Shown here one piece after another: positions 47,890-64,000 of a DNA stretch of 64,000 nucleotides. A model generated the notes under the pieces. The model had not been told where the DNA came from, did no database searches, and worked only from the letters and a program-made list of their open reading frames with translations. Source of the DNA: Minisyncoccota bacterium (GTDB lineage: Bacteria > Patescibacteriota > Minisyncoccia > Phycocordibacterales > JABAAK01); the NCBI GenBank assembly GCA_958295675.1, contig OY282360.1, positions 466,026 to 530,025 on the forward strand, given 5' to 3'. Numbering within the stretch: position 1 is the first letter of the stretch; the number at the start of each line of letters is the position of its first letter. The position numbers and the translations under genes were made by a program.

Positions 47890-47895
47890 ATATAT

Positions 47896-48036: not shown

Positions 48037-48136
48037 ATACATACACTAAGGTTCTTAGTGCGTACTGATACTAACTATAATACACCCCACCTTTTTTAAC
48101 TTGTATAATTACTATTTTATTGGTATAGTATTTATT

Positions 48137-48796: not shown

Positions 48797-48824
48797 TTGC
48801 GAAAAATTGATCGTTTGCTATAAT
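48797..48824 (+). promoter_or_regulatory. Sigma70-type promoter TTGCGA-16-TATAAT for RNA element copy 2
   Basis: ttgcga aaaattgatcgtttgc tataat. Confidence 0.55.
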
Positions 48825-48831
48825 ACCATGC

Positions 48832-49314: not shown

Positions 49315-49435
49315 GCTGGCTATCAATGCTCTATATAGGCGGTGCTTTTTCCCACTTTGTATGCATTTGACAAGTACTTTGTTAGATGTTGCTATCATAA
49401 GTATGTCAAAGGATACATCCCTTTCCTATATATAC

Positions 49436-49464
49436 TTGCGAAAAGGTATGAAATATTGTAGTAT
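49436..49464 (+). promoter_or_regulatory. Sigma70-type promoter TTGCGA-17-TAGTAT for the small membrane protein gene
   Basis: It sits in a repeated module homologous to 48656-48830. Confidence 0.5.
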
Positions 49465-49851: not shown

Positions 49852-50042
49852 TCGGAACAACCACCACAATCCCCTTCCTCTGCGGAAGGGGATTTTTTTA
49901 TAGTATCCGTGTGTTCTTTTGTACTGTAGATTTCCGGATATGTATCTTGTAGCATTTTTTGCTATGATAGTTCCGGCTTCCCATCTTCTCCTTACCCCCA
50001 CCTATGTGGGGTGATTTTTTTATCACATACCGGATAACACTA

Positions 50043-52691
50043 TCAGGATTTTTTCTTGAGAACTTTTTTTAAATACTGACCGGTATAACTGCCGGACTCT
50101 TTTGCCACAGATTCAGGAGTTCCCGCAACAACGATAGTGCCGCCGCGCTCACCGCCTTCCGGACCTATGTCCACAACATAATCCGCATTCTTAATCACAT
50201 CCAAATTGTGTTCAATCAGCAATACTGTATTACCGCGATCCACCAGACGGTTTAATATCTCTATGAGCCGACGAACATCTTCATAATGCAGACCGACGGT
50301 CGGTTCATCCAGCAGATACATAGTTTTTCTGGTATTCGGTCGGTACAGTTCGGAGGCAATTTTCACCCGCTGCGCTTCACCGCCGGAAAGTGTTGTGGAC
50401 GGCTGACCGAGTTCAAGGTAGCCGAGACCGACATCAACCAAAGTGCTCAGGCGATCATGAATTGTCGGTATGTGCTTAAAAAATTCCGCTGCCTCTTCGG
50501 TCGGCATCACGAGCACTTCATGAATATTTTTCCCGCGATAAGTGGTATCCAACACCTCCTTGCTGTATCGCTTGCCGTGACATTCATCGCAAATCACATA
50601 CACCGTCGGCAGGAAATGCATCTCAACGGCGATAGAGCCGTTCCCTTCGCACTTCTCACATCGTCCGCCGGGGACATTAAATGAAAATCGTCCTGATTTC
50701 CAACCGCGATACCGCGCGTCCTCAGTCGCGGCAAAAAGGTCGCGAATATGCGTAAACGCGCCGACATAGGTGACGGGCGTAGAACGCGGCGTGCGTCCTA
50801 TGGGCGATTGGTCAACCAGCACAACCCTGCTTAAATCAGTATATCCCTCAAACACCTTTGTATTAAAATTTCTCTTCACCGTCAGCCGCCGCTCAAGTTT
50901 GTGACGCAAATTTTTGTACACAATATCATACAGCAGCGTTGACTTCCCCGATCCGGAAACACCGGTAATCGCCACCAGCCGTCCGAGCGGAATGGTAACG
51001 CTCACATTATTAATATTATTCGCCGTCGCACCGCGCAGCGTCAGCTGACCCCGATTCTCAGTCCGCCGCCGCTCAGGAACGGCAATCAGCCGGTCTCCGC
51101 GCAGATACGAAAGTGTCAGCGATCCGGAAGAATTGCGCTTGCTCGTGAGCAGCGATTCAAGAAAACCGGAGACGACCACTTCCCCGCCATGTTTCCCCGC
51201 TGCCGGCCCTATATCAACGATATAGTCGGCCGCGAAGATGGTGTCCTCATCATGCTCAACAACAATGATGGTATTACCGAGATCACGCAGATGCAGCAGA
51301 GTCCGTATTAACCGGTCATTATCCCGTTGATGCAGACCGATGGTGGGTTCATCAAGCACATATAACGCACCGACCAAACCGGAACCGAGCTGTGAAGCGA
51401 GCCGTATCCGCTGCGCTTCACCGCCGGAGAGCGTATTTGCCTTACGGTTCAGGGTCATGTACTCAAGCCCGACATTCCTCAAAAAAGTGATGCGGCTGAT
51501 TATTTCATTCAGCAGCGGTTCCGCGATATCCTGCTGCTGCTTGTTAAGCGTTAATTCACCAAAAAAAGAAGCGGCATGCTCAACGGTTAATCCGATAATC
51601 TCATGTATGCTATGCTTTCTTTTTTTGCCGGTAATAAAGACATGAAGCGCTTCAGGACGGAGTCGCGCGCCGTGACAGGCACCGCATGGTTCATCATCAA
51701 ACACATCAACCTGCCCGAGACCGTTGCATTCAGGACACGCGCCGTACGGTGAATTGAACGAAAACAAACGCGGTTCAATTTCAGGAAAAGAAAAACCGCA
51801 GGCGGGACACAGAAAGCGGGACGAAATGAGGGATTCAGAGCCGTCCGGATAACCGAGACGCACAAGACCGTCCGCCTCATGAATGGATCGCTCAACGGCA
51901 TCCGACAGCCGTTCACGGAACACGCGCGGATCCTTGGCATAGTCGCTGATATACAGCGCATCAACATGTATATCAATATCATGTTTCTTGGTCTTGCTGA
52001 GTGTGAGACGATTCCGAAGAGCATGTTCAGCACCGTCAACACGCGCGGTTTCATACCCTTTCCGCAACATATCATAGAGCAGCTGGTAGTATTCCCCTTT
52101 TCGGCCGATGACAAGCGGCGCAAGCACACGGAGTATCCTCTCGTTATACGCAACCCCGGCAACCGAACTACTCTTCTCCAACCACTTCTCCCGCTTGATC
52201 TTCCGTTCAATCCGCCGCACAATCTCATCCTTAGAAACCTTCTCAATCACATGCGAACATGACGGACAAAACGGCGTGCCGACACGGGAAAAGAGTACCC
52301 GAAGATAGTCGTACACTTCAGTGATGGTCGCGACGGTTGAACGCGGATTGTTGGACCTATTCTTCTGATCAATAGAAATAGCGGGAGAAAGACCGGTAAC
52401 TTCCCGAATCTCCGGCTTCTGCATCTGCCGAAGAAACTGCCTGGCATACGCGGAAAGCGATTCAACATACCGTCGCTGCCCTTCAGCGAAGATGGTGTCA
52501 AACGCCAGCGATGACTTGCCGGATCCGGAGATACCGGTACATACCGTCAGCATATTGCGCGGAATATCAACATCAATGTTTTTCAGATTATGCGTTGACG
52601 CGCCGCGAATGCGAATCCATTTGCTGTCATGCGCCATTCCGCTCTTTTTCGCGCGCGCGCCGCTTTGTTTCTTTTTTCTTTTTTCCGGCAT
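50043..52691 (-). CDS. uvrA: Excinuclease ABC subunit A
   Basis: Two ABC modules ([14 protein letters not shown] and [14 protein letters not shown]), zinc-finger Cys clusters and the [12 protein letters not shown] signature twice. The start is set at the internal ATG (MPEKRKKK), since the ORF track N-terminal extension is Cys/hydrophobic read-through. Confidence 0.95.
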
Positions 52692-52695
52692 ACTA

Positions 52696-54480
52696 TCAGC
52701 TCCGTTCTTCTGAAGAAGAAAACACGGCATCTTTTTGCACAAGCATCCGCACTGCATCATCAACAGAAAGCACCTGTTTCCTATCATCCATCTCCAAAGT
52801 AACAGCACCTGCATCGCGCTCTTTTTCACCGATCACAATCCGAGCAGGTATTTTTTCAGCATGTGTTTTCGCCACTTTCCTGCCGACACTCTCATCACTC
52901 ATATCACAATCAACCCGAAGACCGGCACCGACAAGACGGTCAGACACAGTACGCGCGTATGCATGCGCACTCTCACCGACTGACAGCACCCGCACCTGCA
53001 CCGGCGCGAGGAAAAACGGAAAATAGCCGGCGAAGTGTTCAATCATCACGCCCAAGAAACGCTCCAGAGAACCGGACACGGCGCGATGTATCATTATCGG
53101 CACCTGCTTCCTGTTGCCGGAGTCAACATAGGAAAGATTAAAACGCTCCGGCATCACAAAATCAAGCTGTATGGTCGCCAACTGCCACTTCCTGCGCAGC
53201 GAGTCCCGAAAGTGAAAATCAATTTTCGGTCCGTAAAACGCCGCTTCCCCCGCTTCAATGACAAACGGCAAACCAGCGCGCTCAAGCGCGCTTGTAAGGT
53301 ATCGTTCAGCATTGTCCCACACGGCATTGTCACCGAGATAGCTGTCCGTATCACTGCCGCGCACCGAAAGAAACACTTCACAATCATCACCGCGGAAAAA
53401 ACCGAGTGCGGTGTAGAATTCCTTGATAAGTGAAATGGTCGCGGAAACTTCCTCCTCAATCTGCTCTTCCGTGCAGAAAATATGCCCGTCATCCTGCGTA
53501 ATACTCAGCACCCGTGTCAGACCGAGCAATTCGCCCTTCTGTTCATCCCGATAGTTGGTCGTGAATTCCGCGTATCGGATAGGAAGATCGTTATAGCTCC
53601 GCAGCGCGCTCGCGTATATCTGCGTGTGGTGCGGGCAGTTCATCGGTTTCAGCACAAATTCGTCATGCCTGCCGCGCACGGTGAGCAGTTCATCGCCGAA
53701 TTTATCCCAATGCCCCGATGTCTCGTACAATTCTTTCTTCGCCAGATGCGGTATCCATACATGCTCATAGCCGTACCTTTCCAACAGCACAGACAAAGAT
53801 TTTTCCAATGCCCTGCGAAGCGCGTTCCCTTTCGGCGTGAACAGCGGCAATCCGGAGCCGACTAACGGCGAAAAAGTAAACAACCCTAATGCTTTCCCTA
53901 TCTTCCGATGATCCCGCGCCTTTGCTTCTTCAAGCATTCGCTGATACTCATTAAGGTCTTCCTTGGTGTCAAACGCAAGACCGTACACACGCGTCAGCAT
54001 AGTATTTTGCTCATCACCGCGCCAGTACGCGCCGGCAACGGATTGCAGCGCGAAACTGTCAGGATGTATGGAAGAAATATCGTCAACATGACCGCCGCCG
54101 CATAAGTCAATAAAATCACCGGAAGTATATAATGTAATCTCTTTTCCGGCGACAGAAAGTTCGTCAATCAACTCACACTTGTACGGATTATCCTTAAAAT
54201 ACGCAAGTGCCTCCTCTGATGAAACAACCTTTTTTTCAAAAACAGTCCATTGCCCGAGCATCTCCCGCATTTTTTCCTCAACGGCACCCAAATCATCAAC
54301 AGAAAGCGGAACAGGAATTTCAGCATCATAGTAGAAACCGTCATCAATGGCGGGACCGATGGCAAGCTTAGTACCGGGATACAAAGCAACCAGTGCCGCG
54401 CCGAGCGCGTGCGCCAAAGAGTGCCGTTTCTCCTGCAATACATCTGCGGTCTCAGAACTCATACCTTGGTAGAATAACAC
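52696..54480 (-). CDS. thrS: Threonyl-tRNA synthetase (N-terminally reduced, 594 aa)
   Basis: Editing-domain motif [10 protein letters not shown]...[11 protein letters not shown], catalytic-core motif [12 protein letters not shown]...[23 protein letters not shown] and a C-terminal anticodon-binding domain. There is no TGS domain. Confidence 0.9.
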
Positions 54481-54510
54481 AATGAAAAAGCAGCAAACAA
54501 TCAGATATCA

Positions 54511-54978
54511 TCACCGCGAAAAACCGGAATCATGCTCAAAGGGACCGCGGGACGATGCCATAACGGCAAGCCGATCCGCCTTTTCATTCCCTTCTTCATT
54601 TGAATGCCCTTTCACCCACTTGAAAACCACATGTTCCTTCACCAACACATCAAGTTCTTTCCACAAATCAACATTCTTGATTGGTTGTTTCCTGCCGCGT
54701 TCAAGACGCATCCATCCGTTCTCTTTCCAACCGCGCATCCACTGCGTAATTCCTTTCCGCACATACTCGCTGTCAGTCCAGATAGTGATAGTATCAACGG
54801 CACCATATTTTTTCAGCACTTCAATCACCGCGCGCAGCTCCATCCTGTTATTCGTTGTTCTGTAGTACCCCTGAGAAAAAGTGTATTCTAAAGCACCGTC
54901 CCGATACACCACCGCACCGATACCGCCAGGACCCGGATTTCCTTTACATGACCCATCCGTGTATACCTCATATTCCAT
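54511..54978 (-). CDS. rnhA: Ribonuclease HI
   Basis: YTDGSCKGNPGPGG, ...TNNRMELRAVIEVL, ...WTDSEYV... and the KGHSNEEGNEKADRLA motifs. Confidence 0.85.
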   Translation of the reverse strand: MEYEVYTDGSCKGNPGPGGIGAVVYRDGALEYTFSQGYYRTTNNRMELRAVIEVLKKYGAVDTITIWTDSEYVRKGITQWMRGWKENGWMRLERGRKQPIKNVDLWKELDVLVKEHVVFKWVKGHSNEEGNEKADRLAVMASSRGPFEHDSGFSR

Positions 54979-55062
54979 ACAGCACAATGTAGCACAGCAG
55001 TATATCACTTTATCCACCATACTAAAAATATCTCCTCACCCCTACCTTAAACTATAAGTATA

Positions 55063-58000
55063 ATGCACATTACCCACAAAATCCTGCAAGTTGCACTTGC
55101 CATAAGTATACTCAGCATGCTGTTCGTGTCATACGGCATGACAGACGCACAGACCGCGTGCGCGGACGGAGAAGTACTCACCCTCGCCAGTACGGGTCTG
55201 GAGTGTGTTTCCGCGGAGCAGGCATTGCTGGAATCCAATAACTGTCCCGAAGGACAGTTTCTGCAGGTGACCACGGTCAACGGCGTCAGACAGGTTACCT
55301 GTGCCAGTGTTCCGACAGTGGACCCCCCAAAAGAATGCGGCACGGGAGAGTATGTCCGCGGTGTCAACAATGACGGGTCGCTGGACTGTGCGACCATTCA
55401 GACCGTCCCTTCCTGTGCAGTGTCGGTCTCACCCGCATCGCCGACAACAGCACAGTCGTTCACCTTAACGGTGACACCACGGAACTTCTCTGCTGCCGGT
55501 AACTATACCTACCGCTGGAAGTTTGACACGCAGAGCAGAATACTGCGTGAGGAAACGACCGCAATGACCTCAGATACCCTGTCCATTAACGCAGGAGACA
55601 TCGCCAACCCGTACAACTCACCGTACTATGTGACGGTGACGAAAAGCACACAAAGTACCTCATGCGGTATCGTGGTGCCGGTGGTTGCTGCTACCGTTCC
55701 ATCCTGCTCCGGCGGAAGTGTCAGCTGGACTGTGAACAACAAGACCTGCACCGGTTCCCTAGACGAGACAAAATCCGGTAGCAGCGATACTGCAATTGAT
55801 AGCAACAGACCGCCCACCGGCAGCGCGACCTATCACTGTAATAATGACAGGACATGGGGAGAACCAACGAGCGCATCATGTGCAGACGATCCTCCCCACT
55901 GCCAAGAAGACGATGAGGTCACCTGGACAGTAGGCAGTCACACCTGCACCGGTTCCCGAGACGAGACAAACTCCGGTAGCAGCGATACTGCAACTGATAG
56001 CACCGGACCGTCAACCGGTAGCGCGACCTATAGCTGCAACAACGGTGCCTGGACCGAACCGACTAACACAAGTTGCGAATCTACAACTCTTCCTCCTCTC
56101 AAGTGTTCAGGCGGTAGTGTTGATTGGAGCGTGGACAATCACGACTGCACCGGTTCCCGAGACGAGACAAACTCCGGTAGCAGCGATACTGCAACTGATA
56201 GCACCGGACCGTCAACCGGTAGCGCGACCTATAGCTGTAACAACGGCGACTGGATCGCAACTAGCATGAGTTGCGGATATGGAGATCCACCCTGTAATTG
56301 CACCCCGTCCGCAACCGACAGCACAACCGCCGGTACCCGTGCCACACCTCATACATGGTGCAAGAGATCCTGCGCCGGTCGTACTGTCAGATGGACCGTG
56401 AACGGCAAGACCTGTTCGGGCTCCTTGCCAGAAGTAACTCCTGAAGCCGATATAGGTGAAAATCCAACCACCGTGTGGGACACGACTGGAACGACACGCG
56501 GCAGAGCCATTTACGACTGCAATGATGGTACCTTGAGCAACCCGCTGTTCGCGTGGTGCACAAGTGCGACGACATCCTGCGCCGCTGATACAGTCAGCTG
56601 GACCAAGAACGGCAGGACTTGCACAGCGTCCCGACCTATGGCACCTTCCGGCGGAGAGGTCTTCATACGGAGTACCGAAGGAACATCACGCGGCAGTGCG
56701 AAGTACCTCTGTACCAATGGCACCTGGAGCGACGAGCCATCTTTCGCATTGTGCGACAGAACATGTGCCGGTGGTACGGTCAATTGGACAGTAGGCAGTC
56801 ACACCTGCACCGGCACCCGAACCACAACACGACATGGTGGCGGCAGCGTCGCGAGGGATGCCACCAAACCAACAATCGGTGTCGCCGCCTACAGATGTGT
56901 TAATGGTACCTGGAGAACCATGTTTAGTAGATACGATGCTTCTTGGATTTTCTGGAGACATTGGAGTGACAATATGCATGACTCAATATGGTTAAGCGGA
57001 ACCGGTGCGACTTGCTCATCCACATCCTGTCCCGCCGATATAGTCACATGGAGTGAAGACAACAACAGAATTTGCAGATTTTCCCGCTCAATTACACCTT
57101 CCGGTGCATACGCTAATCTATTGGACACTGATGGATCAACGGGTGGTGGCGGATTTTACAAATGTAACGACAATGGCTCATGGGATGATGCTGACAGCAC
57201 GAATGCCTGCACCACGAGTGGGTGTCTGCAAGACGGCGTATGCGATACCAGCAGGCAGAACAGGTGCTCGTCCGGCACGCTCTACAATGATGCCAATGAC
57301 TCCGCGGTGGCTGACACGACCACGCACTACAAATGGCGCTGCGACGGACGGAATGGCGGAAAAAACTCTCCTGTCTGCGAAAAGGAAAAACCGTGCGGCA
57401 CCTGCAACTGCACTACATCAAAAACAGACGCTACGAACGCCGGTACTTGCAGTACCACCGGCAATACCTGCACCGTCTCGGCAAATAACTGTCCGAAGAG
57501 CCCTAAATGCGGTTCCTGGTCACCGGCACGAAACACGGTCTGTAGCGGCACGAGATTCACCCAGTTCAGAACCTGCAACACTGAGTGTAATAACTGTGCA
57601 ACAAGTCGGTTGACGACCGGGACAAAACCCCAAAGTGGGACATGGTCACCGGCACGAAACACGGTCTGTAGCGGCAAGAGATTCACCCAGTCCAGAACCT
57701 GCGGTTCACGATCAACGACCGGCACGAAACCGGCGACAAATTGTCAATGGGGACCTTGGAGTGATTGGAGTACATGTTCAAATGGCTCCCAAAGCAGATC
57801 AAGAAGTAAAACCGTAACCGAGTCAACCTGCGGCACCTGCTCAGGTTCAAGCACCCAATCACAGTGTTGTGGTAGTGGATGCACTCCTGTTCCTTGTGTC
57901 TGCACCGCATCAAAAACCGATGCCGCGAACAAAGGCACCTTGTCTGACGGCAGCGGTGCCTGCACCGTCACGGCGAATAACTGTCCGACAAAAACCTGCA

Positions 58001-60489
58001 ACTGCACTACATCAAAAACCGATGCTACGAACGCCGGCACCTGGTCTGACGGCAGCGGTGCCTGCAACGAGGCGAATAATTGTCCACAAACACCTGTATG
58101 CAACAATGCTGAAGTAGATGAATGCTTAGTCGGGCGCAAATCAAACACCGGCACGAGATGTCAAGATACCACTACGCTTGACCGTTGGTGTTGCATAGGA
58201 AAGCCCGACACTGAGATAGCGTATTGTGACATAAAGAAACCGGGATGTGAGGATAAAGATGTAACTTGGGGAACTCAATGTGGTGGAAGCACAGGAACAG
58301 CAAGTGCAAGCGGAAGTAAGGTAGTCGCCAATACTAAAGCTGGCTACACCGGCAGCGCGACCTACAGTTGTAACAACGAAACATGGAGTGGTCCGACCGC
58401 TTCGAGTTGTAGAGAGAATTTGTGTGAATGGAGTACCTGGTCACCGGCGGCGAATACAAAAACCTGCGGCACATCATTCACGCAAGAGAGAACCTGCGGT
58501 TCTGGAGATGAAACCAAACAGGAAACCCAAACCGCGACCGGTACCAAACCCAGTGCTTGGAGCACCTACGCACCGGCAACGAGCACGGTCTGCAGCGACG
58601 AATCATTCACGCAAGAGAGAACCAGAACCTGCGGTGACCCCACAAGCGAAGAGAGAACCGCGAGAGGGACGGCAACCTGGAGTACCTGGTCACCGGCGGC
58701 GAATACAAAAACCTGCGGCACATCATTCACGCAAGAGAGAACCTGCGGTTCTGGAGATGAAACCAAACAGGAAACCCAAACCGCGACCGGTACCAAACCC
58801 AGTGCTTGGAGCACCTACGCACCGGCAACGAGCACGGTCTGCAGCGACGAATCATTCACGCAAGAGAGAACCAGAACCTGCGGTGACCCCACAAGCGAAG
58901 AGAGAACCGCGAGAGGGACGGCAACCTGGAGTACCTGGTCACCGGCGGCGAATACAAAAACCTGCGGCACATCATTCACGCAAGAGAGAACCTGCGGTTC
59001 TGGAGATGAAACCAAACAGGAAACCCAAACCGCGACCGGTACCAAACCCAGTGCTTGGAGCACCTACGCACCGGCAACGAGCACGGTCTGCAGCGACGAA
59101 TCATTCACGCAAGAGAGAACCAGAACCTGCGGTGACCCCACAAGCGAAGAGAGAACCGCGAGAGGGACGGCAACCTGGAGTACCTGGTCACCGGCGGCGA
59201 ATACAAAAACCTGCGGCACATCATTCACGCAAGAGAGAACCTGCGGTTCTGGAGATGAAACCAAACAGGAAACCCAAACCGCGACCGGTACCAAACCCAG
59301 TGCTTGGAGCACCTACGCACCGGCAACGAGCACGGTCTGCAGCGACGAATCATTCACGCAAGAGAGAACCAGAACCTGCGGTGACCCCACAAGCGAAGAG
59401 AGAACCGCGAGAGGGACGGCAACCTGGAGTACCTGGTCACCGGCGGCGAATACAAAAACCTGCGGCACATCATTCACGCAAGAGAGAACCTGCGGTTCTG
59501 GAGATGAAACCAAACAGGAAACCCAAACCGCGACCGGTACCAAACCCAGTGCTTGGAGCACCTACGCACCGGCAACGAGCACGGTCTGCAGCGACGAATC
59601 ATTCACGCAAGAGAGAACCAGAACCTGCGGTGACCCCACAAGCGAAGAGAGAACCGCGAGAGGGACGGCAACCTGGAGTACCTGGTCACCGGCGGCGAAT
59701 ACAAAAACCTGCGGCACATCATTCACGCAAGAGAGAACCTGCGGTTCTGGAGATGAAACCAAACAGGAAACCCAAACCGCGACCGGTACCAAACCCAGTG
59801 CTTGGAGCACCTACGCACCGGCAACGAGCACGGTCTGCAGCGACGAATCATTCACGCAAGAGAGAACCAGAACCTGCGGTGACCCCACAAGCGAAGAGAG
59901 AACCGCGAGAGGGACGGCAACCTGGAGTACCTGGTCACCGGCGGCGAATACAAAAACCTGCGGCACATCATTCACGCAAACGAGAACCTGCGGTTCTGGA
60001 GATGAAACCAAACAGGAAACCCAAACCGCGACCGGTACCAAACCAAGAGACGGCGGATGGAGTACCTATGGTTCTTGCGAATGTACCTCCAGCACTTTTG
60101 ATGCGGCGAACGCCGGTACACAGAGCAGAACCTGCAACAACCCGGTACGGGGGTGCTCCGGCAGCGCATGCTCCGGCAGCGCATCCCAATCCTGTACCGT
60201 CTCGGCGAATAATTGTCTAGAAAGAAACGGTCAGTGTGGTGGTGACCCTACAATAAGCGGCGACGCATTCACTGGATACTATGTTCTTAATAAGCATAGG
60301 AATTCACTCTGTAAATATGGGACATCTTATGGTTTTAGATCATTACGAGAAAGCGACCAAGGAGGTACTCAACATCCAAATCCTAATCTTAGATTCTACA
60401 AAGCAGTTTGGAAATGCGCTGAAAGCAGCAATGATGTTTCTGTTTCTGTTGCCAGTTGTTCCAAAACATTTTTTGTGCCGGGCTCCTAG
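55063..60489 (+). CDS. Giant secreted Cys-rich protein (1808 aa) with thrombospondin-type-1-like (WSxWS...C...RTC) repeats
   Basis: Signal peptide MHITHKILQVALAISILSMLFVSYGMTDAQTA. The N-terminal half holds repeated ~50-aa Cys modules (C.GGSV.WTV....CTGSRDETNSGSSDTATDS.GPSTGSATYSCNNG.W). The middle carries GSWSPARNTVCSGTRFTQFRTC and CQWGPWSDWSTCSNGSQSRSRSKTVTESTCGTC (TSR-like). The C-terminal half is 6.5 identical 83-aa repeats WSTWSPAANTKTCGTSFTQERTCGSG...WSTYAPATSTVCSDESFTQERTRTCGD. Confidence 0.8.
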   Translation: MHITHKILQVALAISILSMLFVSYGMTDAQTACADGEVLTLASTGLECVSAEQALLESNNCPEGQFLQVTTVNGVRQVTCASVPTVDPPKECGTGEYVRGVNNDGSLDCATIQTVPSCAVSVSPASPTTAQSFTLTVTPRNFSAAGNYTYRWKFDTQSRILREETTAMTSDTLSINAGDIANPYNSPYYVTVTKSTQSTSCGIVVPVVAATVPSCSGGSVSWTVNNKTCTGSLDETKSGSSDTAIDSNRPPTGSATYHCNNDRTWGEPTSASCADDPPHCQEDDEVTWTVGSHTCTGSRDETNSGSSDTATDSTGPSTGSATYSCNNGAWTEPTNTSCESTTLPPLKCSGGSVDWSVDNHDCTGSRDETNSGSSDTATDSTGPSTGSATYSCNNGDWIATSMSCGYGDPPCNCTPSATDSTTAGTRATPHTWCKRSCAGRTVRWTVNGKTCSGSLPEVTPEADIGENPTTVWDTTGTTRGRAIYDCNDGTLSNPLFAWCTSATTSCAADTVSWTKNGRTCTASRPMAPSGGEVFIRSTEGTSRGSAKYLCTNGTWSDEPSFALCDRTCAGGTVNWTVGSHTCTGTRTTTRHGGGSVARDATKPTIGVAAYRCVNGTWRTMFSRYDASWIFWRHWSDNMHDSIWLSGTGATCSSTSCPADIVTWSEDNNRICRFSRSITPSGAYANLLDTDGSTGGGGFYKCNDNGSWDDADSTNACTTSGCLQDGVCDTSRQNRCSSGTLYNDANDSAVADTTTHYKWRCDGRNGGKNSPVCEKEKPCGTCNCTTSKTDATNAGTCSTTGNTCTVSANNCPKSPKCGSWSPARNTVCSGTRFTQFRTCNTECNNCATSRLTTGTKPQSGTWSPARNTVCSGKRFTQSRTCGSRSTTGTKPATNCQWGPWSDWSTCSNGSQSRSRSKTVTESTCGTCSGSSTQSQCCGSGCTPVPCVCTASKTDAANKGTLSDGSGACTVTANNCPTKTCNCTTSKTDATNAGTWSDGSGACNEANNCPQTPVCNNAEVDECLVGRKSNTGTRCQDTTTLDRWCCIGKPDTEIAYCDIKKPGCEDKDVTWGTQCGGSTGTASASGSKVVANTKAGYTGSATYSCNNETWSGPTASSCRENLCEWSTWSPAANTKTCGTSFTQERTCGSGDETKQETQTATGTKPSAWSTYAPATSTVCSDESFTQERTRTCGDPTSEERTARGTATWSTWSPAANTKTCGTSFTQERTCGSGDETKQETQTATGTKPSAWSTYAPATSTVCSDESFTQERTRTCGDPTSEERTARGTATWSTWSPAANTKTCGTSFTQERTCGSGDETKQETQTATGTKPSAWSTYAPATSTVCSDESFTQERTRTCGDPTSEERTARGTATWSTWSPAANTKTCGTSFTQERTCGSGDETKQETQTATGTKPSAWSTYAPATSTVCSDESFTQERTRTCGDPTSEERTARGTATWSTWSPAANTKTCGTSFTQERTCGSGDETKQETQTATGTKPSAWSTYAPATSTVCSDESFTQERTRTCGDPTSEERTARGTATWSTWSPAANTKTCGTSFTQERTCGSGDETKQETQTATGTKPSAWSTYAPATSTVCSDESFTQERTRTCGDPTSEERTARGTATWSTWSPAANTKTCGTSFTQTRTCGSGDETKQETQTATGTKPRDGGWSTYGSCECTSSTFDAANAGTQSRTCNNPVRGCSGSACSGSASQSCTVSANNCLERNGQCGGDPTISGDAFTGYYVLNKHRNSLCKYGTSYGFRSLRESDQGGTQHPNPNLRFYKAVWKCAESSNDVSVSVASCSKTFFVPGS
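58432..60050 (+). repeat. Perfect 249-bp tandem repeat x ~6.5 inside the giant TSR-like gene
   Basis: Antisense ORFs at 58566, 58815, 59064, 59313 and 59562 are 100% identical 249-nt units. The last unit has one substitution (Q->T). Confidence 0.9.
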
Positions 60490-60574
60490 GATTAGCAACG
60501 CTGTATATAAGAGCAAATAAAAAAACCCCCGCGGATAACCGCGGGGGTAGTGCCTTGTAGGCGAAAAAAAGAGG

Positions 60575-63148
60575 TTACCGATCAACGACCGGCAGCATCG
60601 CCGCAGCGCAGCGGAAGTCAACGAGTCCCTGACCGAATTCACGGTCAACCCCGGGCTCCCCGATATCCGTCGCGCACGACTTCAGGGCGTGCACCACATC
60701 CTCCGCATCCTCGTAGGTCTGGAAGAGGTGGAACACCGCCGCGCTGAGTGCCGGTGCCGATGCCGAGGTAATCCTCGACTGCTCCACCGCGAAGCACTGC
60801 TCCCTGGTGTCGCCGCACATCATGACACCGGTATCCGGCACGACCGTGCCGTCCTGTCTGCGCACCGCCGCGGTCGCCATCAGCACCTTACCGGTCCTGA
60901 CCGCGTCCATCGTTGCGGTATACATCCACCGCCGACCGCCATCATCACAGGTGAAGTACGAATGGTCAGGACGCCACAGGTCCCGATCCGGATTGTCCGG
61001 CGGATCGCACTGATTCACGCTATGGTGGTTCACATTACCGGCACTCGCCACAAATATGATATTGTGCGCAGCAATGTGCTCCGCAGCAAGCCTGTTGAAG
61101 GCGGGCAGTACCGACCGGTTCACCACCAGGGTCTCGGCGCGCAGAGCGGCGTTGTCCGGGTGGGTCAGGAAGCCGTACGCACCGTCCACTACGCGCCAGT
61201 CCGTTATCCCCGGACCGTGCACATGGATGTTCGCTTTCGGCACGCCCTCTTCTTTCATGTTCACATACACCGTCCGCTGGGCATGGCTGCCCTCAAACGC
61301 TTCACCATCAGCCAACTCCGAGATCACCAGTTTGTAGCGGTGTTCGTCATCGTCAGTGATACGACCGATGAGGTCGCGCATGCCGGCGAAGGACAGGGTG
61401 TTGGTTACCGTGATCGGCTCGGTGTGCGTGGCTTCCGCGCCGTAGCGGTCGGTAACGGTCAGGGTGACCGGGTAGGTCGTTGTGGCGGGGTAGCGACCCT
61501 CGTAGCCGTGGCGAGCGCCCCGGGTACGCCCGAAGAACCAGGTACTGTCGTAGACAAACAGGGGGGTCGGACCGGTGCCGGTCGTGGTGTCAACCCGCAG
61601 ACTGTTCTCCCCGAAGTCCCAGGCGTAGTCCGTGAGGTCTCCTTTGGACGCGGTGGCGTCAAAGCGGATGCCGAACGGGATGCCGTCGTCCTCCTCGTAG
61701 GTGAACGATGCTTCCACAGGTCTGGCGATGACCCGAATGCCTGCCGGTGTGTAGGAGAGGTTGGTGAGGTGCCCGGTTGTTGTCTGTATGAGGGACAGCA
61801 GGATGACGGGATTGGTCGCGGTGACCATGAGCCGCCACTTACCGCTGCCGTCGCCGAGTCCCAGATCTTCCAGCCGTTTGGCGGTGAAGGTTTTCACTTC
61901 ATTGCCCCGCAGGGTGATGCGGACTGTACTGTCGCCTTCTCTGCCTCTATCGTCAAAGCCGCGGACGGTGACCGTGGTCACGGCACCCGTGGTGTTGACG
62001 ATTCGCAAACTGCTCTCCCGATCGGTATTGCTGCCCGGGTTGAGTATGGGTACCTGGTGCGTCCGTCCCGCATCACCCACGATATCGTGGAGTGCGGTGA
62101 GAAAACCGTCATCGGTGCGCATGTAGGCGAGTACCTGTAGGTCCAGATCGCCGGAGACCGTCAGCCGCCAGTGACCGGTACCGTCGCCGACACCGGTGAT
62201 ACCTTTGGCGACACTGCCGTTTTCCAGATCATTGGAGTTGAAGTGCCGCACCTGATTGGCGCCGATGGGGATGGTGAACGAGCCCCGTTCGGTGCCCGAG
62301 TCATCCCTGGCGCGTACCGTCACGGTGCCCGCTTCCGGTGAGCGGTTGATGATCCGCGCGAAACTCTGCCTGAACCGCGAGACCGCGGTGAACAGCGGAA
62401 TCGTGGTGCCTTCCGGTGCCGATGAGAGGTTCGTGAGGTAGCCGACCTTGGTGCTCATGAGGGACATGACGACAATGGATTCCGGTGCCGTGACGAGCAA
62501 TCGCCACTTACCGCTTCCGTTGCCGAGTCCTCCGTTCTCCAGGTCTTTCGCGCTCAGGGTACGTGCACCGTTGGGGCGGAGGGATACCGTCACGGGACGG
62601 TCTCCCGCTGCACCCTGATCGTCAGTACCCCGCACGGTTACCGTGATAGTCCGCCCCGACCGATTGATCAGCCGGAGCATACTCTCCTGGTTCACGTTTG
62701 AGGCGGGATTGAAGGTCATGACCCGGTAGACCCCGTCAGGGCCTCGTGCCACGGTGTTGTTCATCGCGGTGAGAAAGCCGTCATCGGTACGCAGGTACGC
62801 GGTGACCGCAATCGGCAGCGCACTGTCCAGTGCGAGCTGCCAGTCACCGGTGCCGTTGCCGATACCGGTGATACCTTTCACGGCATTGCCGTTCTCCAGG
62901 TCGTCTGAGTTGAAGTGGTACACCGCGGATGCAGCGATGCGGAACGAACTCCGGTGCAGGACACCGGCATCGTCACGGGCACGGATTGTGACCGTACCGT
63001 CTCGGTGTGCGAGATTCACGACTCGCGTGAATCCCTGCCGAATACCGTCATTCGCGGGAGCGAACAGCGGTACCGTCTGTGTTTCGCCGACTGCGAATGT
63101 CGCGGTCAGCAGGAAAACAGGCAGGATGCCTGCTGCTCGTCTGTGCAT
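60575..63148 (-). CDS. Secreted modular protein (857 aa): duplicated ~215-aa beta-rich modules + PKD-like domain + C-terminal subtilase-like (degenerate) domain. Markedly GC-rich.
   Basis: Signal peptide MHRRAAGILPVFLLTATFAVG. Two copies of a module each contain two sub-repeats (GTVTIRARDD.G...F.I.A..V.HFNSDDLENG...KGITG.G.GTG.W). PKD-like motif FTYEEDDG...FDATASKGDLTDYAWDFGE. The C-terminus has FVASAGN and TSASAPALSAAV, reminiscent of S8 oxyanion/Ser motifs, but clear Asp/His motifs were not found. Confidence 0.65.
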   Translation of the reverse strand: MHRRAAGILPVFLLTATFAVGETQTVPLFAPANDGIRQGFTRVVNLAHRDGTVTIRARDDAGVLHRSSFRIAASAVYHFNSDDLENGNAVKGITGIGNGTGDWQLALDSALPIAVTAYLRTDDGFLTAMNNTVARGPDGVYRVMTFNPASNVNQESMLRLINRSGRTITVTVRGTDDQGAAGDRPVTVSLRPNGARTLSAKDLENGGLGNGSGKWRLLVTAPESIVVMSLMSTKVGYLTNLSSAPEGTTIPLFTAVSRFRQSFARIINRSPEAGTVTVRARDDSGTERGSFTIPIGANQVRHFNSNDLENGSVAKGITGVGDGTGHWRLTVSGDLDLQVLAYMRTDDGFLTALHDIVGDAGRTHQVPILNPGSNTDRESSLRIVNTTGAVTTVTVRGFDDRGREGDSTVRITLRGNEVKTFTAKRLEDLGLGDGSGKWRLMVTATNPVILLSLIQTTTGHLTNLSYTPAGIRVIARPVEASFTYEEDDGIPFGIRFDATASKGDLTDYAWDFGENSLRVDTTTGTGPTPLFVYDSTWFFGRTRGARHGYEGRYPATTTYPVTLTVTDRYGAEATHTEPITVTNTLSFAGMRDLIGRITDDDEHRYKLVISELADGEAFEGSHAQRTVYVNMKEEGVPKANIHVHGPGITDWRVVDGAYGFLTHPDNAALRAETLVVNRSVLPAFNRLAAEHIAAHNIIFVASAGNVNHHSVNQCDPPDNPDRDLWRPDHSYFTCDDGGRRWMYTATMDAVRTGKVLMATAAVRRQDGTVVPDTGVMMCGDTREQCFAVEQSRITSASAPALSAAVFHLFQTYEDAEDVVHALKSCATDIGEPGVDREFGQGLVDFRCAAAMLPVVDR

Positions 63149-63360
63149 GAGAAACGTCCTCGTTGTGTGTGGAAAGAACAGGGTTCTGGCGGGTAGTGTA
63201 GCATATTTTGCTGGTTTATGCTGTGGCAGATACTGTACAGCGTCTCCTATGTTAATGAATGTATGTTTTGAAACATCTTTGACTTTTTCTTTTTCTTTTT
63301 TTTTATTTTTTTAATTGATAATCAGTATCGCGGTATCCCGCGATGTATACTACGGGGTAA

Positions 63361-63431
63361 CGGACTGTAGCATAATGGTAGTGTGCACGCATGGGGTGCG
63401 TGTGGTTCGGGTTCGATTCCCGGCAGTCCGA
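63361..63431 (+). tRNA. tRNA-Pro (anticodon GGG)
   Basis: Manual fold: acceptor CGGACUG/CAGUCCG, D-arm GCAU-AAUGGUA-GUGU, anticodon stem CACGC/GCGUG with loop AUGGGGU (anticodon GGG), T-arm UCGGG-UUCGAUU-CCCGG and discriminator A. CCA is not encoded. Confidence 0.65.
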
Positions 63432-63514
63432 CTCTGTGTAGCATCATATAGTGGAAAGCAATGTCTTTCTATAGCTCCGCACCATGCTGAATCATGTTTT
63501 GTATCACGCTGCTA

Positions 63515-63958
63515 TTACTGTTGAAGACCGGAAACAAATTCCAGCATCTGCTCTATCTTGCTCTGCAATCGCTCTTCCGTCTCACGCGCTCTGCGGGCGG
63601 TATATGTATCCAAATCCTGCAAAGATAACAATCGTTCCTGGTGTCCCTTCGCGAGGATTGATAATGACATGCGCAGGAATCTGATGAAATGATTGAAAAC
63701 CGCCCTGTCCGAACGGGATACATCAGTGATTGATTCACCGGTTGATTCAATAATTTTAGGAATCAGGTTTCTTTGAATCGGCAGGAAACATAACGGGGAA
63801 TCGGCATAGTACCGCGCCGGTACAAACAGTCCGTCCTCATTCTTTTTATACCCATAATCAATTTGTACGCCGTTTTCATTTATGTGTTCAATCTGATTCA
63901 TTTTTCTTCTGGTTGCCTTTTCTAAATCATCAGAAATAACTTCGTCAACGGAGCACAC
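63515..63958 (-). CDS. Hypothetical protein (147 aa)
   Basis: Intact ORF near the window end. No motif was recognised. Confidence 0.3.
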   Translation of the reverse strand: MCSVDEVISDDLEKATRRKMNQIEHINENGVQIDYGYKKNEDGLFVPARYYADSPLCFLPIQRNLIPKIIESTGESITDVSRSDRAVFNHFIRFLRMSLSILAKGHQERLLSLQDLDTYTARRARETEERLQSKIEQMLEFVSGLQQ

Positions 63959-64000
63959 GACATCGCCTGTTTCCCGGTCAATGATAATGGTGTCAACACC

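What the first reader, a model, noticed from the sequence alone, without database searches (positions are those of the whole stretch)
55063..60489. Giant secreted protein with thrombospondin-type-1-like WSxWS repeats in a bacterium
This 1808-aa Cys-rich secreted protein carries multiple modules with the W-S-x-W-S...C...(R/E)-T-C pattern diagnostic of thrombospondin type 1 repeats. Examples are WSTWSPAANTKTCGTSFTQERTCGSG, CQWGPWSDWSTCSNGSQ and GSWSPARNTVCSGTRFTQFRTC. It also carries repeated Cys-rich ~50-aa modules. The window also holds a Spondin_N-like protein (40697-41572), LTD proteins and a SET-domain protein, so it is enriched in eukaryote-like extracellular and chromatin domains. That enrichment suggests adhesion to, or manipulation of, a host cell.
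Basis: partly seen in the sequence, partly recalled or inferred. Interest (0 to 1): 0.8.

Follow-up and report, generated by a model that had tools for sequence, protein, structure and literature searches.

The report
Bacterial giant protein with reduced thrombospondin repeats
An ultra-small (CPR) bacterium encodes a 1808-residue secreted, cysteine-rich mosaic protein with one solid and one weaker thrombospondin type 1 repeat, plus 15 copies of an undescribed ~40-residue prokaryotic repeat that is most likely a loop-deleted thrombospondin repeat; it is probably a surface adhesin or stalk.

Summary
The ORF (55063-60489, +, 1808 aa) is real. It has a signal peptide, 120 Cys and no membrane anchor, and it lies in a housekeeping region of a Candidatus Paceibacterota (CPR) chromosome, so it is not eukaryotic contamination.

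No module reaches Pfam TSP_1's cutoff. Module aa 894-945 is a solid TSR homologue and aa 1666-1720 a weaker one; a profile of five prokaryotic modules, including these two, hits only solved TSR proteins (thrombospondin-1 E=1.8e-16).

The abundant W-S-x-W-S-P...C...F-T-Q-x-R-T-C units (15 copies, 13 of them in a tandem array whose six full 249-nt units are identical) belong to a distinct family without Pfam or NCBIfam models. That family has 588 cluster representatives among 1.84 billion proteins and occurs in bacteria and archaea. These units give no direct profile match to TSRs, and fold searches are inconclusive.

The family does share proteins with canonical TSRs. Hybrid modules in two other proteins score in both families, and the giant's units align end to end with one hybrid apart from a 10-12-residue deletion in the TSR Cys-loop. 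The units are therefore most likely reduced TSR derivatives.

The N-terminal half consists of other un-annotated bacterial modules. An adhesin or stalk function is inferred, not shown.

The parts
55063..60489 (+). Complete gene for the 1808-aa secreted Cys-rich mosaic protein (stop codon included)
   Evidence: ORF list. The identical protein is on record in NCBI/ENA on a 724,510-bp contig.
55063..55149 (+). Signal peptide (aa 1-29, MHITHKILQVALAISILSMLFVSYGMTDA); Sec type inferred, no lipobox or prepilin motif
   Evidence: It is the only strongly hydrophobic segment (15-residue Kyte-Doolittle mean up to 2.4). The cleavage site is inferred by eye.
55159..55665 (+). N-terminal region: three C-x-x-G-x-x-L...C hairpin-like motifs (aa 33-109), then an unassigned ~85-aa segment bounded by Cys (aa 118-201)
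   Evidence: Read from the sequence. No Pfam hit. Not studied further.
55705..57219 (+). Seven family A modules (aa 215-719; ~60 aa, 4 Cys; consensus CAAQTVSWTVGGNTCSGT...TGSATFTCNNGTWS...C)
   Evidence: Iterated HMM, 34-67 bits each. Shared with P0003-P0012. AlphaFold2 pLDDT 92.9, five-stranded all-beta. No PDB fold match, best Foldseek E=1.2.
57223..57378 (+). Family D module 1 (aa 721-772; C...C..G...HYKWRCDGRNGG....C)
   Evidence: Motif read from the sequence. The same module occurs in P0005, P0007, P0011, P0016, P0046 and P0147. No Pfam hit.
57403..57492 (+). Family B module 1 (aa 781-810; CNCTTSKTDATNAGT...C..NNCP)
   Evidence: Read from the sequence. It resembles the insert-bearing N-terminal part and the C-terminal end of TSR2, and is also present in P0016. 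No Pfam hit.
57511..57741 (+). Short repeats 1 and 2 (aa 817-893), divergent copies outside the tandem array
   Evidence: Short-repeat HMM 40.2 and 44.8 bits.
57742..57897 (+). TSR1: thrombospondin type 1 repeat homologue (aa 894-945) with W896/W899/W902 and R912/R914; 7 Cys, lacking the second Cys of the canonical CSxTCG
   Evidence: Pfam TSP_1 E=0.0024, 18.5 bits, below the 21.6 cutoff, profile positions 2-44 of 49. Its best PDB hits are TSRs, but three unrelated chains also appear at E≈1-2. Eukaryote-only TSR HMM 21.4 bits in the whole protein and 30.8 bits as an isolated module. Profile A2 hits only TSR structures.
57895..58092 (+). Family B modules 2 and 3 (aa 945-1010)
   Evidence: Tandem Repeats Finder 102-nt period, 2 copies, at 57900-58096; sequence.
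58099..58248 (+). Family D module 2 (aa 1013-1062), divergent
   Evidence: Read from the sequence. No Pfam hit.
58246..58419 (+). Eighth family A module (aa 1062-1119)
   Evidence: HMM 36 bits.
58423..60057 (+). Tandem array of 13 short repeats (aa 1121-1665): 83-aa double units (type a WSTWSPAANTKTCGTSFTQERTC...ATGTK alternating with type b WSTYAPATSTVCSDESFTQERTRTC...ARGT). The DNA array at 58429-60044 has 6 identical 249-nt copies plus a partial one
   Evidence: AlphaFold2 model of aa 1203-1330 has pLDDT 94.4. The units align end to end with the P0158 TSR/short-repeat hybrid (44% identity, E=1e-11 and 1e-14).
60058..60222 (+). TSR2: divergent TSR homologue (aa 1666-1720) with a ~12-residue insert (CECTSSTFDAANAGT) and the hallmark QSRTCNNPVRGCSGSACSG
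   Evidence: phmmer against PDB gives TSP-1 TSRs at E=5.7e-4, and all 10 hits are TSP-1 or properdin. It is part of profile A2. No Pfam hit, and only 8.0 bits with the eukaryote-only HMM.
60235..60486 (+). C-terminal family D-like module (aa 1725-1808); no anchor motif
   Evidence: Sequence. No Pfam hit. No hydrophobic segment.
60525..60548 (.). GC-rich hairpin (10-bp stem) between the two convergent genes. The T-run is on the minus strand, so it is the terminator of the neighbouring gene and possibly acts in both directions

Best explanation
This is a Sec-exported, disulfide-stabilised, beads-on-a-string surface or extracellular protein of a Paceibacterota (CPR) bacterium. The most likely function is an adhesin or spacer stalk used in cell-to-cell or cell-to-surface attachment.

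It is a mosaic of small beta-rich Cys modules: three N-terminal Cys hairpins, 8 family A modules, 3 'HYxWxC' modules, about 4 family B modules, 2 TSR homologues (one solid, one weaker), and 15 copies of a ~40-aa short repeat (consensus WSPATSTVCSGTSFTQTRTC..TR.ATGTK).

The short repeat is most likely a reduced TSR. It keeps the Trp-bearing A strand and the C-x-G...Q-x-R B strand and ends in a C strand (..ATGTK). It has lost the first TSR Cys and the C-N-N-P-x-P-x-x-G-G-x-x-C-x-G loop, leaving 2 Cys in this protein and 4 in many relatives.

The 13-unit array of identical 249-nt double units would form a long rod. Its length can change by slippage or recombination, which would explain the paralogue that is 97% identical up to aa 1127 but lacks the array.

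SHOWN: gene, modules and copy numbers; bacterial origin; TSR homology of aa 894-945, and more weakly of aa 1666-1720; existence and spread of the short-repeat family; hybrid modules; confident predicted folds.

INFERRED: secretion, disulfides, rod shape, descent of the short repeat from TSRs, adhesin function, length variation.
For: GENE AND ORGANISM.

SIGNAL PEPTIDE ONLY, NO ANCHOR, 120 Cys.

TSR HOMOLOGUES. A profile of five prokaryotic modules, two of them from this protein, hits essentially only TSR-containing solved proteins: TSP-1 1.8e-16 (best single domain 6e-6), properdin 8e-11, BAI1, TRAP, F-spondin, UNC5, C6 and ADAMTS13. The individual modules score E=2.7e-3 and 5.7e-4. A eukaryote-only TSR HMM gives 21.4-30.8 bits for aa 894-942.

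SHORT REPEAT. There are 15 copies at 38-45 bits. The family has 588 representatives at E<=1e-3, 273 at <=1e-10 and 81 at <=1e-30 among 1.84e9 proteins, and this protein is the second-best hit. It has no Pfam or NCBIfam model. The AlphaFold2 model has pLDDT 94.4, and each unit is an irregular Trp strand plus a long hairpin. The top Foldseek hit is properdin (E=2e-3, probability 0.91).

LINK TO TSRs. Nine of about 163 short-repeat proteins also carry TSRs by a eukaryote-only HMM. P0147 alternates C-TSR-C-TSR-C-TSR-C. Pfam TSP_1 is passed by P0147, P0016, P0132 and P0120. The P0158 hybrid module scores 44 bits with a short-repeat HMM built without it, and against PDB it hits properdin at 4.9e-17, TSP-1 at 5.2e-16 and the single TSR chain 12em_B at 4.5e-9; all 35 hits are TSR proteins. 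The P0121 hybrid scores 18.9 bits with the short-repeat HMM and 1.7e-14 against TSP-1. The giant's units align with the P0158 hybrid over 52-54 columns at 44% identity with a single 10-12-residue gap in the TSR Cys-loop.

ADHESIN CONTEXT. Relatives with the same modules carry type IV pilin-like N-termini (P0007, P0009/P0010, P0132) or lie next to a T2SSE ATPase. Large Cys-rich signal-peptide proteins of CPR bacteria have been proposed to act in attachment (PMC4736985).

ARRAY IDENTITY AND PARALOGUE BREAKPOINT.
Against: No module passes Pfam TSP_1's gathering score.

The short-repeat profile finds no TSR in PDB sequences.

Clean profile-profile comparisons are at noise level. The score was 13.4 with 1 of 100 shuffles as high, and 8.5 with 29 of 100 as high when the repeats came only from TSR-free proteins. 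An apparently strong signal came entirely from the hybrid modules.

The hybrids could in principle be recombinants rather than evolutionary intermediates.

The two Cys of the short unit correspond to TSR Cys that do not pair with each other in TSRs, so the disulfide topology must differ.

There is no experimental or expression evidence, no anchor that would explain surface retention, and no known binding partner.

Copy number in a perfectly identical 1.5-kb array depends on assembly quality.
Confidence: 0.6

Rival explanations
1. One reading: all W-S-x-W-S modules are canonical thrombospondin type 1 repeats, acquired from a eukaryote and used to adhere to or manipulate a eukaryotic host cell.
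For: Two modules are TSR homologues. The TSR core of the P0158 hybrid is 54-58% identical to canonical TSR fragments on what is probably a eukaryotic contig. Spondin_N, LTD and SET genes lie in the same window.
Against: The 15 short units fail every direct TSR test and have 2 Cys rather than 6. About 70% of the protein consists of modules found in bacteria and archaea. The organism is a CPR bacterium, and no eukaryotic host is indicated. The enzymes that modify eukaryotic TSRs (C-mannosylation, O-fucosylation) are not expected in bacteria (general knowledge).
Confidence: 0.12
2. The short repeat is an independent prokaryotic module that is unrelated to TSRs, or convergent with them, and merely travels with them. 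The hybrid modules arose by recombination between neighbouring TSR and short-repeat units.
For: There is no direct profile-profile signal once the hybrids are removed. The short-repeat profile finds no TSR in PDB sequences. Fold searches are at noise level. In P0147 the two module types alternate as clearly separate entities.
Against: The P0158 hybrid is an interleaved four-segment mosaic (TSR-type GGWSAWSAW, short-repeat-type [18 protein letters not shown]-type [22 protein letters not shown], short-repeat-type RQATGTKDC), which would need three crossovers. A second, different hybrid exists in P0121. There is a graded series of scores under both HMMs. The motifs share one register, the predicted layout is three-stranded, and properdin is the top Foldseek hit.
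Confidence: 0.25
3. The protein is not an adhesin. It is instead a structural envelope component (S-layer-like or sheath) or the stalk of a secreted effector or toxin system.
For: Family A modules occur in P0007 upstream of a pretoxin-HINT domain. In some genomes, relatives sit next to secreted proteases: reprolysin in L017 and S8 in L018. The giant has no recognisable binding domain.
Against: No toxin, HINT or enzymatic domain is detectable in the giant. The protease adjacency is not general, and the window's own neighbour is only weakly S8-like.
Confidence: 0.15
4. The finding is an artefact: eukaryotic contamination, a chimeric assembly, or a non-coding repeat that happens to be open.
For: The six 249-nt units are identical, and repeats keep several frames open.
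Against: The gene lies 42 nt from a divergent RNase H gene and next to ThrRS and UvrA within a continuous bacterial housekeeping region. The same protein and a paralogue are on a 724.5-kb contig. Only one frame is open across all 5.4 kb, and it encodes modules with hundreds of homologues.
Confidence: 0.02

Closest known systems
Thrombospondin type 1 repeat (TSR; Pfam TSP_1 PF00090 and relatives), as in thrombospondin-1, properdin, F-spondin, ADAMTS and apicomplexan TRAP
   Same: Modules aa 894-945 and aa 1666-1720 align over almost the full TSR length. They carry W-x-x-W-x-x-W, S-R-S-R-S and the R-T-C-N-N-P...C-S-G signatures. The short units share the register W-S-P...C-x-G...Q-x-R-x-C and a predicted layout of three strands, one irregular and two in a hairpin.
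   Different: Nothing passes the curated Pfam cutoff. TSR1 lacks one canonical Cys, and TSR2 has a 12-residue insert and only one Trp. The 15 short units lack the first Cys and the whole CNNPxPxxGGxxCxG loop, have 2 Cys, and are about 40 rather than about 55 aa long. The host is a CPR bacterium, whereas one review treats TSP1 as an animal-lineage domain later passed to apicomplexans (PMC3417536).
Prokaryotic TSR plus short-repeat proteins found here (P0016, P0046, P0147, P0132, P0120, P0154; no published name found)
   Same: They share the same module set and order as the giant's aa 716-1010: HYxWxC module, short repeats, canonical TSR, then CxCT module and insert-bearing TSR in P0016.
   Different: They are 360-920 aa long, with 2-7 short repeats and canonical TSRs that pass Pfam. 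The giant adds 8 family A modules and a 13-unit identical array, and its own TSRs are more degenerate.
Large cysteine-rich extracellular proteins of CPR bacteria (Peribacteria; Anantharaman et al. 2016, PMC4736985)
   Same: Small-genome CPR host, protein above 1000 aa, signal peptide, very high Cys content, proposed attachment role, and variation between strains or paralogues.
   Different: That paper reports no TSR or short-repeat content. The lineage differs (Peregrinibacteria vs Paceibacterota). Sequence relatedness to those proteins was not tested here.
F-spondin (reelin-N + Spondin_N + six TSRs in one chain)
   Same: The genome encodes both a Spondin_N domain (40673-41572, E=8.9e-34) and TSR-type modules.
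   Different: They are on separate genes 13.5 kb apart on the same strand. The Spondin_N protein showed no TSR or short repeat, and no reelin-N domain was seen.
Giant multi-repeat bacterial adhesins (RTX, Bap and Ig-like repeat adhesins)
   Same: Beads-on-a-string build, near-identical tandem units forming an extender, and secretion. An RTX adhesin extender region appeared among the weak rod-like Foldseek hits.
   Different: The module types are entirely different: small disulfide-rich units rather than Ca-binding Ig-like domains. There is no RTX or T1SS signal, no LPXTG, and no recognisable anchor or ligand-binding head.

Membership tests
Thrombospondin type 1 repeat (Pfam TSP_1, PF00090) | Score at or above Pfam's gathering threshold (21.6 bits) against the TSP_1 profile | tested here: not met
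   The whole protein has 0 families at E<=10. Module aa 894-945 scanned alone scores 18.5 bits, E=0.0024, profile positions 2-44 of 49. Module aa 1666-1720 and all short units have no hit.
Thrombospondin type 1 repeat (Pfam TSP_1, PF00090) | Significant, specific sequence similarity to experimentally solved TSR domains | tested here: met
   For aa 894-945 and 1666-1720: profile A2 (five prokaryotic modules) gives TSP-1 E=1.8e-16 (best domain 6e-6), and essentially all 42 hits are TSR-containing proteins. Caveat: A2 includes P0016's canonical TSR. The single modules give E=2.7e-3 and 5.7e-4. The eukaryote-only HMM gives 30.8 bits for TSR1 but only 8.0 for TSR2. NOT met for the 15 short units.
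Thrombospondin type 1 repeat (Pfam TSP_1, PF00090) | W-x-x-W-x-x-W on strand A facing R-x-R-x-R on strand B (Trp-Arg ladder) | tested here: inconclusive
   TSR1 has W896/W899/W902 and R912/R914, which is complete. TSR2 has W1666/Y1669 and a single R. The short units have W-x-x-W (type a), W-x-x-Y (type b) or a single W, plus Q-x-R(-x-R). Side-chain stacking could not be inspected because no coordinates were available.
Thrombospondin type 1 repeat (Pfam TSP_1, PF00090) | Six conserved Cys forming three disulfides | tested here: not met
   The short units have 2 Cys here and 4 in many relatives. TSR1 has 7 Cys and lacks the second Cys of CSxTCG. TSR2 has 7 Cys.
Thrombospondin type 1 repeat (Pfam TSP_1, PF00090) | Elongated three-stranded fold (irregular strand A, regular antiparallel strands B and C) | tested here: inconclusive
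Thrombospondin type 1 repeat (Pfam TSP_1, PF00090) | Link of the short units to TSRs through intermediate sequences (transitive homology) | tested here: met
   The P0158 hybrid scores 44.3 bits with the short-repeat HMM and 4.5e-9 against the single TSR chain 12em_B; all 35 of its PDB hits are TSR proteins. The P0121 hybrid scores 18.9 bits and 1.7e-14. The giant's units align with the P0158 hybrid at E=1e-11 and 1e-14 with one loop-sized gap. The direct profile-profile signal is absent without the hybrids.
Short 'WSP...C.G..FTQ.R..C...TR...GTK' repeat family (no Pfam or NCBIfam model; defined here) | Near-invariant W, P, C, G, Q, C, G, T positions in a 30-45-aa unit arranged in tandem | tested here: met
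   There are 15 copies at 38-45 bits. Alignment A1 shows the invariant columns. This protein is the second-best of 588 family representatives.
Large Cys-rich extracellular proteins of CPR bacteria (PMC4736985) | CPR host, more than 1000 aa, signal peptide, unusually high Cys content | tested here: met
   The nearest RpoC relative is a Paceibacterota MAG at 76% identity. The protein is 1808 aa with 6.6% Cys and an N-terminal hydrophobic signal. This is a descriptive class, not a homology family.
F-spondin-like protein | Spondin_N and TSRs in one polypeptide | tested here: not met
   Spond_N is in a separate 299-aa protein at 40673-41572. No TSR or short-repeat signal occurs outside the giant ORF.
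Sushi/CCP or Ig-like domain (considered for family A modules) | Structural match of the module to the known fold | tested here: not met
   The AlphaFold2 model has pLDDT 92.9. The best Foldseek PDB hit has E=1.2, and no Sushi or Ig hit appears. No Pfam hit.

The most novel reading that the evidence does not exclude
The ~40-aa short repeat is a previously unrecognised, loop-deleted branch of the thrombospondin type 1 repeat superfamily. It has radiated in prokaryotes (at least 588 sequence clusters, in CPR bacteria, larger bacteria and archaea), often side by side with canonical TSRs. The TSR fold would then be a shared prokaryote-eukaryote extracellular module with its own prokaryotic history, rather than an essentially eukaryotic adhesion module. 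That history could be either an old transfer followed by reduction, or a prokaryotic origin. Ultra-small symbionts would be using it in their attachment proteins.
Probability: 0.3. Interest if true: 0.7.

Novelty: new variant of a known kind. Interest (0 to 1): 0.55.

Why it matters
Thrombospondin type 1 repeats are classic animal and apicomplexan adhesion modules. One review describes them as an animal-lineage domain later acquired by parasites (PMC3417536).

This gene shows TSR homologues inside a CPR bacterium. It also exposes a sizeable prokaryotic repeat family without Pfam or NCBIfam models. That family partners with canonical TSRs and is joined to them by hybrid modules. If the reduced-TSR reading holds, it widens the TSR superfamily, gives a minimal two-Cys version of the fold for structural study, and bears on where TSRs came from.

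CPR bacteria are mostly uncultured and are thought to depend on attachment to other cells. Large Cys-rich secreted proteins are among the few candidates for how they attach. This protein gives such a candidate a defined modular anatomy and a length-variable array that can be followed between strains.

The limits are clear. The function is inferred, and the homology of the short repeat rests on indirect evidence.

Tried and rejected
1. Whole-protein Pfam and NCBIfam scans found nothing. A BLASTP self-comparison gave no usable repeat map, so the modules were defined by eye and then by iterated HMMs.

2. Locating the gene or its paralogue on contigs failed: exact look-ups for P0001 and P0002 were not on record, and ten housekeeping proteins were not in the collection. 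A genome-contig scan with the giant protein found nothing. Taxonomy came from RpoC instead.

3. Profile-profile comparison of the short repeat with TSRs. Small sets were not significant. Large sets looked significant. I rejected that result after showing it was driven by modules belonging to both families; with those removed the signal vanished.

5. Family A as a Sushi/CCP-like 'eukaryotic' domain was rejected: no fold match at all.

6. A conserved protease partnership was rejected. Reprolysin next to P0016 and S8 next to P0017 were not seen in three other neighbourhoods, and the window's own neighbour is only marginally S8-like.

7. The eukaryotic-contamination explanation was rejected on gene context.

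9. A word-indexed search with the hybrid module returned only three canonical TSR fragments, so how common hybrids are remains unknown.

10. Literature searches for bacterial or CPR TSRs found nothing relevant.


Full report
OBSERVATION. The ORF is exactly as described: 55063..60489 on the + strand, 1808 aa, starting with ATG. The protein is 18% Thr, 12.6% Ser and 6.6% Cys (120 Cys) and has 53 Trp. Tandem Repeats Finder reports a 249-nt period with 6.5 copies at 58429-60044, and the six full copies are identical at every nucleotide. The only strongly hydrophobic stretch is the N-terminal signal-like segment (aa 3-27). There is no second hydrophobic segment and no recognisable anchor, and all Cys lie in the mature part.

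WHERE IT SITS. The window is an ordinary bacterial chromosome. It carries rpoB and rpoC, uvrA, uvrB and uvrC, Thr-, Tyr- and Ser-tRNA synthetases and one further class II synthetase, a Mur ligase, RNase H, DNA polymerase III delta' and Dus. The giant gene starts 42 nt from the divergent RNase H gene. A GC-rich hairpin separates it from a convergent gene. RpoC is 76% identical to that of a Candidatus Paceibacterota MAG with a 641-kb chromosome, and every other genome hit is about 40%. The identical protein is on record in NCBI/ENA on a 724,510-bp contig, together with a paralogue, P0002. So the host is a CPR (Patescibacteria) bacterium, and eukaryotic contamination is excluded.

ANATOMY. The whole protein has no Pfam or NCBIfam hit, even at E<=10. 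I dissected it by eye and with iterated HMMs. The order of parts is:
- signal peptide (aa 1-29);
- three C-x-x-G-x-x-L...C motifs (aa 33-109);
- an unassigned segment (aa 118-201);
- seven family A modules (aa 215-719);
- an 'HYKWRCDGRNGG' family D module (aa 721-772);
- a family B module (aa 781-810);
- two short repeats (aa 817-893);
- a multi-Cys TSR-like module, TSR1 (aa 894-945);
- two more B modules (aa 945-1010);
- a divergent D module (aa 1013-1062);
- an eighth A module (aa 1062-1119);
- the tandem array of 13 short repeats (aa 1121-1665), built from 83-aa double units;
- a second TSR-like module with an insert, TSR2 (aa 1666-1720);
- a C-terminal D-like module (aa 1725-1808).
None of these modules occurs anywhere else in the window.

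THE TWO MULTI-CYS MODULES ARE TSR HOMOLOGUES. Scanned alone, aa 894-945 hits Pfam TSP_1 at E=0.0024 and 18.5 bits. That is below the 21.6-bit cutoff, but the match covers profile positions 2-44 of 49. Against PDB sequences its best hits are thrombospondin-1, F-spondin and C9 TSRs (best E=2.7e-3), with three unrelated chains at E≈1-2. All ten hits of aa 1666-1720 are thrombospondin-1 or properdin (best E=5.7e-4), and the alignment includes the hallmark R-T-C-N-N-P...C-S-G stretch.

A profile of five prokaryotic modules (these two, two from P0016 and one from P0024) hits 42 PDB sequences. Essentially all are TSR-containing proteins: thrombospondin-1 at 1.8e-16 (best single domain 6e-6), properdin at 8e-11, then BAI1, TRAP, F-spondin, UNC5, C6 and ADAMTS13. 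The caveat is that P0016's canonical TSR strengthens this profile. An HMM built only from eukaryotic TSRs scores aa 894-942 at 21.4 bits in the whole protein and 30.8 bits as an isolated module. TSR2 gets only 8.0 bits, so TSR1 is solid and TSR2 is weaker.

THE ABUNDANT UNITS ARE A DIFFERENT FAMILY. They are 30-45 aa long, have 2 Cys in this protein and 4 in many relatives, and occur 15 times here at 38-45 bits. A search with only the TSR-like part of the protein found about 30 metagenomic proteins built from tandem arrays of this unit, and almost all lack any Pfam call. An exhaustive HMMER search of 1.84 billion representatives with the repeat profile found 588 proteins at E<=1e-3, 273 at <=1e-10 and 81 at <=1e-30. 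This protein was the second-best hit.

Family members occur in several settings:
- a 1.0-Mb contig (P0017; taxon not determined);
- a 3.5-Mb bacterial genome;
- an archaeal context with eIF-1A, eIF-2beta/eIF-5 and archaeal KH-CPSF genes;
- directly downstream of a T2SSE/type IV pilus ATPase.

IS THE SHORT REPEAT A TSR? The direct tests fail or are inconclusive:
- No Pfam hit.
- The repeat profile hits no TSR in PDB sequences.
- hhalign against TSR profiles is not significant with small sets.
- With large sets it looked significant (score 29.3, probability 83% against prokaryotic TSRs). I traced that result to modules counted in both alignments. Without them the score drops to 13.4 (1 of 100 shuffles as high), and to 8.5 (29 of 100 as high) when the short repeats come only from TSR-free proteins.
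- An AlphaFold2 model of three units, built from an alignment containing no TSR sequences, is very confident (pLDDT 94.4). Each unit is an irregular Trp-bearing strand, a short turn and a long beta-hairpin, which is the general TSR layout.
- Foldseek puts properdin on top, but only at E=2e-3.

The indirect evidence is stronger:

(i) Co-occurrence. Nine of about 163 family proteins also carry TSRs by the eukaryote-only HMM. P0147 is a strict C-TSR-C-TSR-C-TSR-C alternation. P0147, P0016, P0132 and P0120 pass Pfam TSP_1. P0016 reproduces the module order of the giant's aa 716-1010.

(ii) Hybrid modules. P0158 contains five copies of [59 protein letters not shown]. This module scores 44 bits with a short-repeat HMM built without it. 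Against the PDB it hits properdin at 4.9e-17, thrombospondin-1 at 5.2e-16 and the single-TSR chain 12em_B at 4.5e-9, and all 35 hits are TSR proteins. Pfam shows only sub-threshold TSR-family hits for it. A different hybrid in P0121 scores 18.9 bits with the short-repeat HMM and 1.7e-14 against thrombospondin-1.

(iii) A score gradient under both HMMs runs from canonical TSR, through the hybrids and the W-x-x-W-x-x-W-bearing P0054 units, to the giant's units.

(iv) Direct alignment. The giant's type a and type b units align end to end with the P0158 hybrid at 44% identity (E=1.5e-11 and 1.2e-14 for the single comparisons). The only gap is 10-12 residues long and falls within the TSR's [14 protein letters not shown] loop.

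The P0158 hybrid is an interleaved four-segment mosaic of TSR-type and short-repeat-type signatures. Its TSR-type core is 54-58% identical to canonical TSR fragments. A recombinant origin would need three crossovers. I therefore judge descent of the short repeat from TSRs, by loss of the first Cys and the Cys-loop, to be the best reading (about 0.65-0.7). It is not proven.

THE REST OF THE PROTEIN. Family A (consensus CAAQTVSWTVGGNTCSGT...TGSATFTCNNGTWS...C) is shared with large proteins that carry 5 to 27 copies. Some of these have type IV pilin-like N-termini (P0007, named by NCBI as a prepilin-type protein of an alphaproteobacterium; P0009 and P0010) or a pretoxin-HINT C-terminus. Its AlphaFold2 model is confident (pLDDT 92.9, five strands) but has no PDB fold match (best E=1.2). 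It is not a Sushi or Ig-like 'eukaryotic' domain. Families B and D also have no Pfam model.

MECHANISM (INFERRED). The protein has a signal peptide, 120 Cys in small modules, confident all-beta module models and no enzymatic domain. It therefore looks like an exported, disulfide-stabilised, beads-on-a-string protein. Relatives with the same modules are linked to type IV filaments. Large Cys-rich signal-peptide proteins of CPR bacteria have been proposed to mediate attachment and to vary between strains (PMC4736985). I therefore favour an adhesin or spacer stalk.

The array of identical 249-nt units is a likely site of length variation. The paralogue P0002 is 97% identical over aa 69-1127 and diverges just after the first short repeat of the array begins. 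How the protein is retained on the cell, and what it binds, are unknown. Nothing here points specifically to a eukaryotic host.

VERDICT. Novelty: a new variant of a known kind, namely a reduced, prokaryote-wide TSR-like repeat lacking Pfam or NCBIfam models, here in a CPR surface protein. Interest is moderate to fairly high (0.55).

Noticed in passing
window 21996-29327 (+): Seven consecutive paralogous genes (270-506 aa, 48-69% pairwise identity). All start with nearly the same N-terminus (MADICKELRKQLHELD...), differ in internal repeat number, and have no Pfam match.
   Followed up: partly
window 8426-12053 (-) and 20002-20547 (-): A cluster of LRV/HEAT-repeat proteins (Pfam LRV up to E=5.5e-67), with overlapping ORF calls around 10470-10839.
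   Followed up: no
window 30040-30534 (-): A small SET-domain protein (Pfam SET E=7.8e-26) with NHSCRPNC, GEELSYDYG and a Cys-rich post-SET tail, encoded in a CPR bacterium.
   Followed up: partly
window 40673-41572 (+); 37435-39867 (-); 36500-37402 (-): A Spondin_N-domain protein (E=8.9e-34) and two lamin-tail-domain proteins (E=9.9e-22; E=1.8e-7, below cutoff). Spondin_N and the TSR-type modules are on separate genes 13.5 kb apart.
   Followed up: partly
window 60575-63148 (-): The convergent neighbour is an 857-aa signal-peptide protein with internal ~230-aa repeats, a weak PKD_4 hit and a C-terminus only marginally similar to S8 peptidases (BLASTP E=0.005 against the S8 gene of L018). It could be a divergent or inactive subtilase.
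   Followed up: partly
window 47400-49450: About 2 kb with no ORF above roughly 115 aa on either strand and no Rfam hit, flanked by normally dense coding sequence.
   Followed up: no
window 50000-64000: GC content rises from about 0.43-0.49 in most of the window to 0.51-0.58 beyond 50 kb. AT skew reaches 0.44 over the tandem array.
   Followed up: no
window 55021-55062: Only 42 nt separate the divergent RNase H and giant-gene start codons. There is no Shine-Dalgarno motif before the giant's ATG, and a TATAAG sits 5 nt upstream, so the transcript may be leaderless or short-leader.
   Followed up: no
L017 8001-13220: The TSR plus short-repeat protein P0016 lies next to a convergently oriented 1208-aa reprolysin-family metalloprotease gene. 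This is an ADAMTS-like combination (metalloprotease plus TSRs) split over two bacterial genes.
   Followed up: no
L018 568-9997: Two paralogous short-repeat protein genes are each followed by a Peptidase_S8 gene, interleaved with HEPN/nucleotidyltransferase pairs, on a 1.0-Mb contig.
   Followed up: partly
P0158 (2853 aa), aa 417-1285: Five hybrid TSR/short-repeat modules. The first four recur with a 250-aa period and three of them are identical, embedded in a much larger repeat unit. The protein also has FG-GAP-like DGDYDG motifs further on.
   Followed up: partly
L021 6001-7233: A short-repeat family member (P0018) is encoded among archaeal translation and RNA-processing genes (eIF-1A, eIF-2beta/eIF-5, KH-CPSF, PNO1-KH). 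The repeat family therefore crosses the bacteria-archaea boundary, possibly among small-genome symbionts.
   Followed up: partly
P0004 (precomputed Pfam PF27521); L017 6861-7826 (PF27522 'YDMC'): P0004, a family A protein, carries a precomputed Pfam accession (PF27521) that is newer than the local Pfam copy, so family A may recently have been given a Pfam model that I could not read.
   Followed up: no
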